Source: a virus. Taken from it: 11,201 bases of DNA. Position 1 is the first letter of the stretch; every line of letters begins with the position of its first letter. The stretch lies in UHGV virus genome UHGV-0222504; one strand, 5' to 3'. A program made the position numbers. Of the stretch, positions 1 to 3,000 are shown one piece after another.

Positions 1-3000
1 TTCTCAGGCAATGCCACAGCATCGGCACCAATCTTACTGATAATTTCATTAACACCCTGAGCAGAAATAAGGGCATGGATTTGATTAATTGCGGTTGCGT
101 CTAAGTTCTGAGACATAATAAGTCCTCACTATATAAAGATATTCAGTGATGAGATAAATAATCAGTTTATTAAAAACGATATTAACGACCTGCTGCGCGG
201 AGTTTTCCGTCAGGTTCACCGGCAAGAGTCAGTAATTGTCCTTGGTCTTCCTGCAGAATAGTCAGGCGACCACCGCGATTGACATACATCGGCGTTTCGG
301 TGGTGTCTTCTTCGGAAATTTTCCCGCGGTTAGTCGGGCGAACATATGAGAGTTTGTGTTTGATTTTTACACGGTTCTCATCAAACGGTTCGATTTCCAG
401 GTTGAGCGAGACCTTACCTTTGGTTTTCGTGTTCATCACACCGGAAGCGACTTCACTGAGAACAGCGCCGATTTTGGTTTCAAATACGCCGCCGTCCAGC
501 TCCCCGATAAATGCCTGCACATCAGTACTGCGTTCGCTAGCCATTTTGCTGCTCCTCATCATATCGACCCCGCAAGGTCGGTTGGTTTCTCCACAAAACA
601 GAGAAGAACACCAGCGGTGGCAGCCGCCCGGATGGATTGGGTTATGAGCCCGTCGTCCGGTGATGCCCTTCTCTGTTTTGTAAAAAGAGCGGTACCAGCC
701 GGAAGCAAGTGTACAAACTGGTACCGCCAAAGCAGTGGCTGTTGTGGTGACCGGTGCTGATCTCCGGCTTGCGGTTATTTCAGACTCTCACGGGCGTTTA
801 ATTGCCCCGCCGAACAGCTCTTTTCCGCAATAGCTGCAATGTCTTTCGCGCATCAGCCTGCGCATTCACCACAACGCTGAGAGCATTGCCGGTGTCCGAA
901 TCGAACGGACCTTTTCCCTGCCCAACCCTCCCATCTGAATGGGACTGTCTGGAATTGAACCAGCACTTATGCCTTGCTCGTCAATGCTCTCATCGTTGCG
1001 TCCTGGTCTCTTCCCAAGCGTCAAACCGAATCGCCACGCTGGTTAGGCGTCTTATCAGCATCCTCATTGACTTGCACATTCCGGCTACCTGGTTTGTTTG
1101 CCCGAGCAAGGAGTGGATTATCCCCTTTAACGTCCCCAGACCGCTAACGACGCATGTGCCATACGCCGTGTTACAACCAAATTTTGTTTGAATCTTGCCT
1201 GCCTCATGTTTCTTTTGGATACATTATGTATCTCATAGGTACATTGTCAAGTATAAAAAAACCTGCCGAAGCAGGTTCATAAATATTGATTAGGCCTTTA
1301 TTGTGTATCTTCTTGGTTTTCCCGAGAAAATCACTGTACCAATTATAGAGCAATTACCGTTAATCTTAATGTAAGGCTCAGGCCAGTTTGGGTTTAATGC
1401 TTTGAGATAACGCTGTGTTCCATCTTCTATCAACCGCTTGAAGGTGGTTTCGCCTGAATCGTGCATCAATGCAATAACGTCGTCACCGTGGCAGGCAGGG
1501 ACTTCAGGATCAACAAAAATCATGTCTCCCGGGCGGTACTCATCAATCATTGAATCACCAATCACCCGCAAGATATAAGTCATTTCGCCACAGGGTACAG
1601 GGCAGGGATAAGTTTCTGCTGTGCTCAAATCAACCTCAGAATAGCCAACTTCTTTCCATGCTCCGGCCTGTACCCATGATATGACAGGGACTAACGTTAT
1701 TTGTTTGTTAGTGATTGAAACATCAGGTTTTTTTGTGATGTTCGTGGTCTGGTGTTCTTGATCAAGCCATCCGACAGGCAGGTCGAAACATTTTTCGATG
1801 TGCCTTGCCATGCTGTCACCGATATTTTTAGTAGCACCATCTCCCATAAACCTGCTGGTCTGGGTTGGCTCGCGATCAATCATGGTGGCAAAGGAAGAAT
1901 TCCCGCCAACACCATCTCTCAGTTTTCTGGCGTTAGACCGCCGGATGTCATGGACTGTTTTCATAACGAAATTAAAACCTTTGTACCGATAGGGTACAAG
2001 TATCTTGAAGGTTCATCTCAATCATGTAATATGTATACCGGAGGTACATGTTGTATGAAAGCGTATTGGGACTCTTTAACCAAAGAACAGCAGGGCGAGT
2101 TGGCCGGAAAAGTTGGCTCAACACCAGGCTATTTACGGCTGGTTTTCAATGGTTATAAAAAAGCCAGTTTTGTGCTGGCGAAAAAACTTGAGCAATGCAC
2201 GTCAGGTGCAATTACGAAATCTGACTTAAGACCGGATATCTATCCGAAAGATTAACAGAACACCTTCAATTTTTAACCACAGAACGATGAGGCTAACCGT
2301 GGGTAAGCATCACTGGAAAGTAGAAAAACAGCCTGAGTGGTACGTGAAAGCTGTCAGAAAAACTATCGCGGCGTTGCCGGGGGGGTACGCTGAAGCTGCT
2401 GAGTGGCTGGATGTAACAGAGAACGCTTTATTCAACCGCCTTCGTGCAGATGGCGATCAGATTTTCCCGCTGGGATGGGCAATGATTTTACAGCGCGCGG
2501 CTGGCACTCACTACATTGCGGATGCTGTCGCACAGTCTGCTGGTGGGGTGTTTGTATCGCTTCCTGAAATTGAGGAAGTAGAGAACGCCGATATAAACCA
2601 GCGCCTGCTGGAAGTCATCGAACAGATCGGGAGTTACTCAAAGCAGATTCGTTCGGCAATCGAAGATGGGGTAGTGGAGCCACACGAGCAGACAGCAATT
2701 AATGATGAGTTGTATCTGTCAATTTCGAAGCTCCAGGAGCATGCAGCACTGGTCTACAAAATCTTTTGCGCTCCAGAAAAGAGTGACGCCCGCGAGTGTG
2801 CAGCTCCGGGCGTCGTGGCGTTTTGTGTCTGTGGAGAAACTAACGCATGAACAGTTTAACGGCAAATAACCGTTTGTCGCAACAGCTGGTGGTCAGCGTC
2901 GCTGAACACCTGTTGTTACGGCATGAATGCAGATTACCAAATCTCCTGGCTGTAAGTAACCACAGAGAACTTTACCTGACTGTGGGGGGCGAGTTGTGCA

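What the first reader, a model, noticed from the sequence alone, without database searches (positions are those of the whole stretch)
1965..2054. Compact two-operator immunity switch plus a single left operator; operator 2 overlaps the cro ribosome-binding site
Only three 17-bp sites matching TGTAYN-N5-GGTACA exist in 11.2 kb and all flank cI (1982-1998, 2032-2048, 1227-1243). That is two right operators instead of lambda's three, one left operator embedded in the PL spacer, and an apparently leaderless cI. Operator 2 covers the cro SD, so the repressor would block PR and also sit over the cro translation-initiation region.
Basis: partly seen in the sequence, partly recalled or inferred. Interest (0 to 1): 0.35.

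Follow-up and report, generated by a model that had tools for sequence, protein, structure and literature searches.

The report
e14/SfV-type prophage immunity operators

Summary
The three exact 17-bp sites (1227-1243, 1982-1998, 2032-2048) are real. They are the only exact matches in the window, against 0.01 expected by chance.

The window carries the e14/SfV immunity module: ymfK (cI), ymfT (cro) and ymfL. The SfV GenBank record already marks window 1981-2049 as a "putative operator region". Published transcription-start mapping in K-12 shows the ymfK mRNA has no leader.

The "two right, one left" count comes from demanding exact matches. Two weaker sites sit directly next to the strong ones:
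- **1999-2015:** AGTATCTTGAAGGTTCA
- **1207-1223:** TGTTTCTTTTGGATACA

These are the 5th and 4th best of 11,185 positions for a matrix trained only on other loci. In 19 diverged relatives the register never shifts. The GGTTCA half of the middle site is invariant, while its two central bases vary freely.

The middle site lies 43 bp upstream of the mapped cI start and about 32 bp upstream of the predicted cro start. That is where lambda's OR2 sits.

The cro ribosome-binding site does lie inside the 2032-2048 site in every relative. A DNA-bound repressor acts on transcription, however, not on translation.

Verdict: an ordinary lambdoid switch, already known in outline. Site occupancy has not been tested.

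The parts
1290..1964 (-). cI-type repressor gene (ymfK/cohE type, 224 aa). [quoted passage not shown] The C-terminal S24 domain is the self-cleaving type.
   Evidence: ORF. Pfam Peptidase_S24, E=2e-26. Alignment to lambda CI keeps QAG, GDSM and FKRL. A profile of the N-terminal domain hits 5d50_A Rep at E=1.1e-8. RefSeq names it ymfK/LexA family.
1964..1964 (-). PRM transcription start, which is the A of the cI ATG (leaderless mRNA)
   Evidence: In K-12 e14 the ymfK class I transcription start coincides with the CDS start, leader length 0 (Romero et al. 2014, PMC4681348, supplement). The sequence 1962-1978 is identical in the window and K-12.
1971..1976 (-). PRM -10 hexamer, TTTAAT on the minus strand
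   Evidence: Read from the sequence. It lies 6 nt upstream of the mapped start. The TAAT core is conserved in most of the 19 diverged loci, with exceptions such as L016.
1994..1999 (-). PRM -35 hexamer, TTGTAC on the minus strand, 17-bp spacer, 3 of 6 matches to consensus
   Evidence: Read from the sequence. Inferred from the position of the mapped start.
1982..1998 (.). Right operator next to cI (OR3-like), TGTACCGATAGGGTACA, a perfect palindrome. Its centre is at -26 from the PRM start and it overlaps the PRM spacer and -35.
   Evidence: Exact match. Best matrix hit in the window at 23.1 bits. Half-sites carry 1.9-2.0 bits and the centre 0.43 bits in 19 loci.
1999..2015 (.). Weak middle right operator (OR2-like), AGTATCTTGAAGGTTCA. 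It abuts the previous site. Its centre is at -43 from the PRM start and about -32 from the predicted PR start, and it overlaps the PR -35.
   Evidence: 2-mismatch hit. 5th best of 11,185 matrix scores at 8.8 bits, the next hit being 2.3. GGTTCA is invariant in 19 diverged loci and in 104 loci in all, while 2008-2009 carry 0.40 bits. Grouped with 1228-1244 and 2033-2049 by the repeat finder family D1.
2005..2010 (+). Predicted PR -35 hexamer, TTGAAG
   Evidence: Read from the sequence. TTG is conserved and positions 4-5 are variable in relatives. No transcription-start data.
2027..2032 (+). Predicted PR -10 hexamer, TAATAT, 16-bp spacer. Predicted start at about 2037-2041.
   Evidence: Read from the sequence. 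A at position 2 and T at position 6 are kept in every relative (TAATAT, CATAAT, TAGAAT, TATCCT). Below the scan tool's 9-of-12 threshold.
2032..2048 (.). Right operator next to cro (OR1-like), TGTATACCGGAGGTACA. It spans the last base of the PR -10, the predicted start and the cro Shine-Dalgarno sequence.
   Evidence: Exact match. Matrix score 19.2 bits. The right half GGTACA is invariant.
2040..2044 (+). cro Shine-Dalgarno sequence GGAGG. Its last two G are the first two bases of the operator half-site GGTACA.
   Evidence: Sequence. GGAGGTACA is invariant in 19 diverged loci.
2055..2255 (+). cro-type gene (ymfT/croE type, 66 aa, YdaS-like helix-turn-helix)
   Evidence: Weak similarity to the Cro structures 8co2 and 8c7k.
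2287..2850 (+). ymfL, a CII-like regulator (Pfam Phage_CP76)
   Evidence: 55.3 bits against a cut-off of 26. Named ymfL.
1227..1243 (.). Left operator OL1, TGTATCTCATAGGTACA, in the PL spacer. Its centre is at about -19.
   Evidence: Exact match. Matrix score 22.6 bits. Conserved as TGTACC-N5-GRTACA one base after TTGACA in 19 loci.
1207..1223 (.). Weak second left operator OL2. On the minus strand it reads TGTATCCAAAAGAAACA. It covers the last base of the PL -10 and the predicted start.
   Evidence: 2-mismatch hit. 4th best matrix hit at 11.4 bits. The promoter-proximal half TGTACC is kept in nearly all of 19 loci, always 3 bp after OL1, while the distal half is degenerate. Inverted repeat I3.
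1223..1250 (-). PL promoter, TTGACA-16-CATAAT. Predicted start at about 1216.
   Evidence: 11 of 12 matches. The same place is annotated 'promoter' in phage Ayreon, MF807953. Invariant in relatives.
1259..1278 (-). Intrinsic terminator after cI
   Evidence: Annotated as a terminator in the SfV and Ayreon records.

Best explanation
The region is the OR/OL control system of an e14/SfV-type lambdoid prophage, and it most likely follows lambda's logic.

A RecA-cleavable CI repressor (YmfK type) recognises 17-bp dyads with the consensus TGTAYC-N5-GGTACA. There are three right sites in a fixed register:
- **1982-1998:** a strong site over the spacer and -35 of the leaderless cI promoter PRM, playing the OR3 role.
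- **1999-2015:** a conserved but deliberately imperfect site, playing the OR2 role. It overlaps the PR -35 and lies 43 bp upstream of the PRM start, where a bound repressor could contact RNA polymerase.
- **2032-2048:** a strong site over the PR -10 edge, the predicted start and the early leader, playing the OR1 role.

There are two left sites. 1227-1243 is strong and sits in the PL spacer. 1207-1223 is weak and covers the PL -10 edge and start.

Repressor at the cro-proximal and middle right sites and at the two left sites shuts PR and PL. At high repressor level, or with Cro (YmfT), the cI-proximal site shuts PRM. SOS cleavage of CI releases PR and PL.

**Shown:** the sites, their conservation and register, the PRM start (in K-12), and the protein domain homologies.

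**Inferred:** which protein binds which site, the order of filling, cooperativity, PRM activation, and the PR and PL starts.
For: **Identity of the region**
- It is 98-100% identical to E. coli prophages annotated ymfK/ymfT/ymfL, to phage SfV, cdtI, Ayreon and Stx2c phages.
- The SfV record marks 'putative operator region' at a place that equals window 1981-2049.

**The sites**
- Exact sites: 4 strand matches against 0.01 expected.
- A matrix trained on the strong sites of 18 other loci ranks 1982, 1227, 2032, 1207 and 1999 as the top five of 11,185 positions. The scores are 23.1, 22.6, 19.2, 11.4 and 8.8 bits; the next is 2.3. Per shuffled window, 0.08-0.19 hits reach the two weak scores.
- The repeat finder independently groups 1228-1244, 2000-2016 and 2033-2049, and pairs 1206-1224 with 1226-1244.

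**Conservation in 19 loci from many enterobacterial genera (cI 74-99% identical)**
- No indel occurs between the first and last right site.
- The half-sites are near invariant and the centres vary.
- GGTTCA at 2010-2015 is invariant in 6 of 6 columns, although it lies outside the PR -35 core. Positions 2008-2009 carry 0.40 bits.
- Non-site columns are only 54% identical pairwise.
- The promoter-proximal half of OL2 is kept 3 bp after OL1 in all but one or two loci.

**Promoters and proteins**
- The PRM start is at the A of the ATG in K-12.
- PL matches consensus at 11 of 12 positions and is followed upstream by the cI terminator.
- CI keeps lambda's cleavage-site and catalytic motifs, and its N-terminal domain is homologous to a solved phage repressor DNA-binding domain.

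**Characterised analogue**
- CP-933P also has a leaderless repressor, a YdaS-type Cro, and a mix of well-conserved and degenerate palindromes over PRM and PR (PMC8630535).
Against: - No binding data exist for YmfK or YmfT in the papers I could search.
- The middle site has a mismatch in the core of one half (GGTTCA instead of GGTACA) and scores only 8.8 bits.
- It abuts the cI-proximal site with no spacer, 17 bp centre to centre. That is tighter than lambda's 23-24 bp and could mean mutual exclusion rather than independent occupancy.
- Its conserved TTG is also explained by the PR -35.
- The perfect palindrome sits at the OR3 position, not at OR1. If matrix score tracked affinity, CI would shut its own promoter first.
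- PR and PRM match consensus at only 8 of 12 positions and were not called by the scan tool.
- The distal half of OL2 is absent in some relatives (L007, L011, L015, L016).
Confidence: 0.7

Rival explanations
1. The switch really works with two right operators and one left operator. On this view the sequences at 1999-2015 and 1207-1223 are conserved only because they contain promoter elements: the PR -35, the flank of the PRM -35, and the PL -10 and start. PRM would then be regulated only negatively.
For: - Only three sites match exactly.
- The middle site overlaps the PR -35 TTG and touches the PRM -35.
- OL2 overlaps the PL -10 and start.
- The 17-bp abutment with the cI-proximal site is sterically unusual.
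- The distal half of OL2 is missing in four relatives.
Against: - GGTTCA (2010-2015) lies in the PR spacer, where promoters do not need conserved sequence. Yet it is as invariant as the half-sites of the exact operators.
- Positions 4-5 of the supposed -35 vary freely.
- The weak sites are the 4th and 5th best matrix hits in 11.2 kb, and both fall in register beside strong sites.
- The TGTACC half of OL2 is kept exactly 3 bp after OL1.
- The middle site is centred at -43 from the mapped PRM start, the position of lambda OR2 (established knowledge).
Confidence: 0.22
2. The cI-proximal and middle right sites form one 34-bp composite operator. It would be bound by a higher-order repressor assembly, for example a tetramer whose DNA-binding domains pair across dimers, as described for the homologous SPC32H Rep. 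On this view lambda-style independent OR2 and OR3 roles do not apply.
For: - The N-terminal domain is homologous to SPC32H Rep (E=1.1e-8).
- The two sites abut with zero spacer in all 19 loci.
- The tetrameric 'trans' binding mode of Rep is recalled from Kim et al. 2016 (PNAS). I did not read that paper here.
Against: - The C-terminal domain is the lambda CI/LexA S24 type, not the Rep tetramerisation domain.
- The left pair is spaced 20 bp, not 17 bp.
- There is no binding data.
Confidence: 0.06
3. The palindromes act as RNA hairpins, either terminators or translational structures, rather than as protein-binding sites.
For: The scan tool flags 1999->1981 on the minus strand as terminator-like: a 7-bp stem followed by a T-rich tail.
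Against: - Predicted folds are no better than shuffles, with z-scores of -1.3 to -1.75.
- The other sites are imperfect palindromes without T runs.
- The T-rich tail is the PRM -10.
- The mapped cI transcript starts downstream of the palindrome.
- No Rfam family matches there.
Confidence: 0.02

Closest known systems
e14 cryptic prophage (ymfK/cohE - ymfT/croE - ymfL) and Shigella phage SfV immunity region. Also phages cdtI, 2H10, Ayreon, SfIV and Stx2c-converting phages.
   Same: It is the same module. DNA identity over 1100-2900 is 97.8-100%. The operator, promoter and terminator sequences are the same. SfV carries a 'putative operator region' feature that equals window 1981-2049. Ayreon annotates PL and the terminator. 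The K-12 ymfK mRNA is mapped as leaderless.
   Different: There are only point differences, mostly in operator centres: positions 1989, 1992, 2036 and 2038. The sequence downstream of OL differs between the window/Ayreon and e14/SfV. The genes to the right of ymfL differ from K-12 e14.
Phage lambda OR/OL switch
   Same: - Divergent cI and cro genes, with a leaderless cI transcribed from PRM.
- 17-bp dyad operators that overlap PR and PRM.
- A weaker middle site at about -42/-43 from the PRM start.
- A second operator cluster at PL on the far side of cI.
- A CI C-terminal domain homologous to lambda's, with the same cleavage and catalytic motifs.

The lambda geometry is from established knowledge (Ptashne, A Genetic Switch).
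   Different: - The operator sequence is unrelated.
- Centre-to-centre spacings are 17 and 33 bp instead of 23 and 24 bp.
- The strongest-looking site is at the OR3 position.
- Only two left sites are seen.
- The cro-proximal site lies over the start and Shine-Dalgarno sequence rather than upstream of the start.
- OL and OR are about 0.8 kb apart instead of 2.4 kb.
- The CI N-terminal domain and Cro belong to other sequence families.
- Published analyses of SfV/SfIV report no N, cII or cIII homologues (PMC3851460).
CP-933P (E. coli O157:H7) PaaR2 / YdaS / YdaT immunity region
   Same: This switch is experimentally characterised. It has a short intergenic region (97 bp there, 90 bp here), a leaderless repressor, a YdaS-type Cro and a CII-like third gene. 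Palindromic operators over PRM and PR are a mix of well-conserved and half-degenerate copies, and related sites occur at a PL-like promoter (PMC8630535).
   Different: The repressor PaaR2 has no S24 domain and is not SOS-cleaved. The operator sequence differs (GTTTAGTAA type). Four equally spaced palindromes were described there. Cro is only weakly similar (E about 0.01).
Phage 933W (Stx2) repressor-operator system
   Same: From memory (Koudelka et al. 2004, J Bacteriol): three right operators but only two left operators, in an SOS-cleavable CI system of a toxin-converting lambdoid phage. That is the same 3+2 count proposed here.
   Different: The repressor family and operator sequence are different.
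Salmonella phage SPC32H Rep (PDB 5D50)
   Same: [quoted passage not shown]
   Different: Rep is inactivated by an antirepressor and has a different C-terminal domain. The protein here carries a LexA/CI-type S24 self-cleavage domain.

Membership tests
Lambdoid CI/Cro immunity switch (OR/OL type) | Divergently transcribed repressor and cro genes separated by a short control region | tested here: met
   cI at 1290-1964 (-), cro at 2055-2255 (+), 90-bp intergenic region.
Lambdoid CI/Cro immunity switch (OR/OL type) | Several related dyad-symmetric operators in the intergenic region that overlap PR and PRM | tested here: met
   Two exact sites and one conserved weak site, which overlap the mapped or predicted promoter elements. 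This is sequence evidence only.
Lambdoid CI/Cro immunity switch (OR/OL type) | Operators of the same type at a leftward early promoter on the other side of cI | tested here: met
   OL1 at 1227-1243 and OL2 at 1207-1223 over TTGACA-16-CATAAT.
Lambdoid CI/Cro immunity switch (OR/OL type) | The repressor and Cro actually bind these sites, with opposite orders of preference and cooperative repressor binding | not testable with these tools
   No binding data in the searchable literature. This needs EMSA, footprinting or ChIP-exo.
Lambdoid CI/Cro immunity switch (OR/OL type) | Repressor with a LexA/CI-type S24 self-cleavage domain: Ala-Gly site, Ser nucleophile and Lys base | tested here: met
   Peptidase_S24, E=2e-26. 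VQAGAW, GDSM and FKRL align to lambda CI VQAGMF, GNSM and FKKL. Cleavage activity was not tested.
Lambdoid CI/Cro immunity switch (OR/OL type) | Leaderless repressor mRNA from the maintenance promoter (characteristic of the family, not strictly defining) | tested here: met
   Published differential RNA-seq places the K-12 ymfK transcription start at the first base of the CDS, leader length 0. The local sequence is identical in the window.
e14 / SfV immunity type | Near-identical cI, cro and operator DNA, which implies the same immunity specificity | tested here: met
   97.8-100% identity to SfV, Ayreon, cdtI and E. coli ymfK-ymfT-ymfL loci. Half-sites are identical.
   A site at 1999-2015 is found by mismatch search, by a matrix trained on other loci, and by the repeat finder. 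Its GGTTCA half is invariant across relatives. Occupancy is untested.
YdaS-type Cro (Pfam PF15943) | Score above the Pfam gathering threshold | tested here: inconclusive
   25.1 bits against a cut-off of 30, E=1.5e-5. RefSeq nevertheless names it 'YdaS family helix-turn-helix protein'.

The most novel reading that the evidence does not exclude
The e14/SfV-type switch may depart from lambda in a functionally meaningful way. The geometry is rigidly conserved: the cI-proximal and middle sites abut at 17 bp, on roughly opposite faces of the helix, and the middle and cro-proximal sites are 33 bp apart, about three turns. This geometry would allow cooperation only across three helical turns. It would also make the two abutting sites mutually exclusive or part of one composite site. 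With the perfect palindrome sitting over PRM, the circuit could be dominated by tight negative autoregulation rather than by lambda-like positive autoregulation. Alternatively, the middle site could serve Cro or another factor rather than CI.
Probability: 0.25. Interest if true: 0.35.

Novelty: already known. Interest (0 to 1): 0.14.

Why it matters
This immunity type is among the commonest in E. coli. A match is present in 2,745 of 5,426 complete genomes, and 1,309 of them hold most of the query.

It controls SOS induction of several elements:
- e14, including its division inhibitor YmfM;
- the Shigella serotype-converting phages SfV and SfIV;
- cdt-converting and Stx2c-converting phages.

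A correct site map of three right and two left sites, with promoter positions, is useful in three ways: for predicting immunity groups, for reading induction and transcriptome data such as the 'YmfT iModulon', and for designing reporter or binding experiments.

It does not open a new question. It is a variation on the lambda theme, and the region was already flagged as an operator region in GenBank.

Tried and rejected
- **RNA hairpin or terminator reading of the palindromes.** Folds are not better than shuffles, and no Rfam family matches in 550-2300.
- **Extra operator half-sites inside cI** (TGTACC at 1335 and 1669, GGTACA at 1594). They looked enriched, but they are absent from most diverged relatives, so they are chance.
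- **Other 2-mismatch hits** at 7443-7459 and 9233-9249. Their matrix scores are 0.0 and 2.3 bits, so they are chance.
- **LexA box.** By inspection, the spacing of the TGTA and TACA arms does not fit CTGT-N8-ACAG.
- **The 693-728 inverted repeat**, which contains TGTACA and GGTACC. Its arm spacing is wrong for this operator.
- **Pfam on the cI N-terminal 88 residues.** No family matched, even at E=10. Homology appeared only with a profile against PDB sequences.
- **Literature.**
  - The SfV genome paper (Allison 2002) and the e14 analysis (Mehta 2004) are not held, so I could not see which individual sites they named.
  - A search for CohE/CroE was swamped by unrelated words.
  - Papers mentioning ymfK or ymfT give no binding sites.
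- **IMG/VR scan.** It returned only 99-100% identical repressors. These were useful for micro-variation but not for divergence.
- **Distant relatives** (28-37% identical cI). One locus, L024 (Comamonas), shows two strong palindromes, TTAGC-N5-GCTAA, at equivalent places, with a possible weak middle site. This is suggestive only.
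Full report
**What is in the sequence**

The window's left part holds a leftward 224-aa ORF at 1290-1964 and a rightward 66-aa ORF at 2055-2255, followed by a 187-aa ORF at 2287-2850.
- The first has a Peptidase_S24 domain (E=2e-26).
- The second is a small helix-turn-helix protein with a sub-threshold YdaS match.
- The third is a Phage_CP76 'CII' family protein.

With N7 nothing matches. With N6 the only exact matches in 11,201 bases are 1227-1243, 1982-1998 (both strands) and 2032-2048, against 0.01 expected from shuffles.

**Where the region comes from**

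Bases 1100-2900 are 99.8-100% identical to many E. coli chromosomes where the genes are annotated ymfK (LexA family), ymfT (YdaS family) and ymfL. A match occurs in 2,745 of 5,426 complete genomes.

The same stretch is 97.8-98.8% identical to Stx2c-converting phages, phage cdtI, 2H10, Ayreon and Shigella phage SfV.

In the SfV GenBank record a regulatory feature, 'putative operator region', covers a stretch that maps to window 1981-2049. That is exactly from the first right site to the second. The Ayreon record annotates a promoter and a terminator that map to window 1224-1251 and 1249-1288.

K-12 e14 carries the same module. The feature is thus the immunity region of a well-known prophage type.

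**Promoters**

Romero et al. 2014 mapped transcription starts in MG1655 and list ymfK among five leaderless E. coli mRNAs. A class I start coincides with the first base of the CDS, leader length 0 (PMC4681348). The window is identical to K-12 from the ATG through the -10 region.

Counting back from 1964 on the minus strand gives these PRM elements:
- -10: TTTAAT, plus-strand 1971-1976.
- -35: TTGTAC, 1994-1999, after a 17-bp spacer.

For cro the best reading is TTGAAG (2005-2010), a 16-bp spacer, then TAATAT (2027-2032), with a start near 2037-2041. Relatives keep the A2 and T6 of the -10 and the TTG of the -35. There is no start-site evidence, and the scan tool did not call it because it scores 8 of 12.

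To the left of cI there is an intrinsic terminator (1278->1259), followed by a near-consensus leftward promoter, TTGACA-16-CATAAT, at 1250->1223.

**More sites than three**

Allowing two mismatches brings up 1207-1223 (TGTTTCTTTTGGATACA) and 1999-2015 (AGTATCTTGAAGGTTCA), each directly beside an exact site.

To test them I fetched 20 loci whose repressor is 74-99% identical. They come from E. coli, Klebsiella, Atlantibacter, Leclercia, Pseudocitrobacter, Phytobacter, Enterobacter, Pantoea, Trabulsiella, Kluyvera, Limnobaculum, Rahnella, Edwardsiella and others. I also fetched 80 near-identical viral contigs.

In 19 non-redundant diverged sequences the right region aligns without any indel from the first site to the last. 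The layout is: site, abutting site, 16 bp, site.

Information content by segment:

| Segment | Window coordinates | Mean information | Invariant columns |
|---|---|---|---|
| cI-proximal site, left half | 1982-1987 | 1.90 bits | 4 of 6 |
| cI-proximal site, centre | 1988-1992 | 0.43 bits | 0 of 5 |
| cI-proximal site, right half | 1993-1998 | 2.00 bits | 6 of 6 |
| Middle site, left half | 1999-2004 | 1.63 bits | 3 of 6 |
| Middle site, centre, TTG | 2005-2007 | 1.90 bits | 2 of 3 |
| Middle site, centre, last two bases | 2008-2009 | 0.40 bits | 0 of 2 |
| Middle site, right half (GGTTCA) | 2010-2015 | 2.00 bits | 6 of 6 |
| cro-proximal site, right half | 2043-2048 | 2.00 bits | 6 of 6 |

Columns outside sites and promoter hexamers are only 54% identical pairwise. 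GGTTCA lies in the PR spacer, where a promoter needs no specific sequence. Positions 4-5 of the -35, which a promoter would constrain, are free. That is the signature of an operator with fixed half-sites and a free centre, not of a promoter element.

In most relatives the left half of the middle site is AGTACC, which is the consensus core.

A position matrix built only from the strong sites of the other 18 loci ranks the window's positions as follows:

| Rank | Site | Score |
|---|---|---|
| 1 | 1982-1998 | 23.1 bits |
| 2 | 1227-1243 | 22.6 bits |
| 3 | 2032-2048 | 19.2 bits |
| 4 | 1207-1223 | 11.4 bits |
| 5 | 1999-2015 | 8.8 bits |
| 6 | 9233-9249 | 2.3 bits |

A whole shuffled window yields 0.08 and 0.19 hits at the two weak scores. 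The chance of such hits falling in register next to strong sites is far smaller.

The repeat finder, given no pattern, groups 1228-1244, 2000-2016 and 2033-2049 into its top direct-repeat family. It also pairs 1206-1224 with 1226-1244.

On the left side all relatives read, in the PL direction, TTGACA-A/G-TGTACC-N5-GRTACA-TAA-TGTACC-N5-(G)NAACA. The second site keeps its promoter-proximal half almost everywhere; the window has TGTATC and L021 has TGTACT. Its distal half is degenerate and is missing in four loci.

**Geometry**

| Site | Centre | Relative to PRM start (1964) | Relative to predicted PR start (about 2039) |
|---|---|---|---|
| cI-proximal | 1990 | -26 | about -49 |
| Middle | 2007 | -43 | about -32 |
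| cro-proximal | 2040 | not relevant | about +1 |

In lambda, OR2 is centred near -42 from PRM and overlaps the PR -35 (established knowledge). The middle site here is in the same place relative to both promoters.

The spacings differ from lambda: 17 and 33 bp instead of 23 and 24 bp. The 33-bp spacing is about three helical turns, which is compatible with same-face cooperation. The 17-bp spacing puts neighbours on roughly opposite faces.

The left sites are 20 bp apart. They lie at about -19 and +2 of PL.

**Proteins**

The repressor aligns to the lambda CI C-terminal domain with VQAGAW, GDSM and FKRL opposite lambda's cleavage site, serine and lysine. SOS-triggered self-cleavage is therefore plausible, in line with what is written about e14.

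Pfam sees nothing in the N-terminal 88 residues. [quoted passage not shown] It also matches, more weakly, a 'phage repressor protein CI' (7NKV).

Cro is weakly similar to two solved 'Cro' structures.

**The ribosome-binding-site overlap**

GGAGG (2040-2044) shares its last two G with the half-site GGTACA, and GGAGGTACA is invariant in all 19 relatives. This follows from a very short leader of about 15 nt. The operator lies over the start of transcription, so a bound repressor blocks polymerase. Nothing indicates an effect on translation, because the repressor binds duplex DNA.

**Rivals**

- The two-plus-one model remains possible if the conserved weak sites are never occupied. I give it about 0.2.
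- A composite 34-bp operator for a higher-order assembly is a minor possibility, given the Rep-like N-terminal domain.
- An RNA-hairpin role is rejected.

**Comparison and novelty**

The closest things are the identical e14/SfV module, lambda itself, and the characterised CP-933P switch. CP-933P has a leaderless repressor, a YdaS-type Cro, and a mixture of good and half-degenerate palindromes. From memory, 933W also has three right and two left sites.

The region was already flagged as an operator region, PL and the terminator are annotated, and the leaderless start is published. I could not read the SfV and e14 genome papers, so I cannot say whether the individual weak sites were named there.

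No open-access paper that I could search reports binding data. I therefore file this as already known. Its modest added value is a site map supported by comparative data.

Noticed in passing
window 3207-3283 (+) and 3308-3395 (+), inside ORF 2847-3683: Rfam gathering-level matches to the isrK Hfq-binding RNA (64.2 bits) and the C4 antisense RNA (82.3 bits). They lie within the region whose ORF matches the Ash protein family; SfV annotates the equivalent gene as 'immunity region'. This looks like a second, P1/P7-type RNA-based immunity or antirepressor control module just to the right of ymfL.
   Followed up: no
Related loci L003 (K-12 e14), L001 (SfV), L004, L005, L008-L014, L018, L022: the PL leader just after the second left operator. 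The window has different sequence at 1100-1205.: A conserved element of about 60 nt, AACAGGCAGGACGCCCACGAAGTAGCCGCC...ATGATTCGC, contains a 5-bp stem. Three of its pairs change on both sides while keeping the pairing (CCGGT/ACCGG, CCCCA/TGGGG, CCTGG/CCAGG). It has no Rfam match. It could be a nut- or put-like antitermination RNA or another leader element. The window and phage Ayreon lack it.
   Followed up: partly
window 546-1216 (minus strand): About 650 nt lie between the predicted PL start and the first leftward gene (yfdP-like, 182-544) with no convincing ORF. The stretch includes a perfect 10-bp inverted repeat, GCGGTACCAG...CTGGTACCGC, at 689-729. It is a long leader of unknown role.
   Followed up: no
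L024 (Comamonas terrae), upstream of a repressor 28% identical to the one here: Two strong palindromes, TTAGC-N5-GCTAA, sit at the same relative places as the cI-proximal and cro-proximal right sites here. A possible weak middle site, CGAGC-N5-GCTAT, lies 24 bp from each. This hints that the strong-weak-strong layout is older than the operator sequence.
   Followed up: partly
L074 (IMG/VR contig), the position equivalent to window 1996: This is the only locus among 104 with a half-site mutation in the cI-proximal operator, GGTGCA in place of GGTACA. It could be an operator mutant or a sequencing error.
   Followed up: no
window 5162-5848 (+) and 9922-10974 (+): The prophage appears to encode two DNA methyltransferases. 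In a near-identical genome the equivalent genes are annotated as a phage N-6-adenine-methyltransferase and a site-specific DNA-methyltransferase. A second small LexA-family regulator gene lies at 5845-6171.
   Followed up: no
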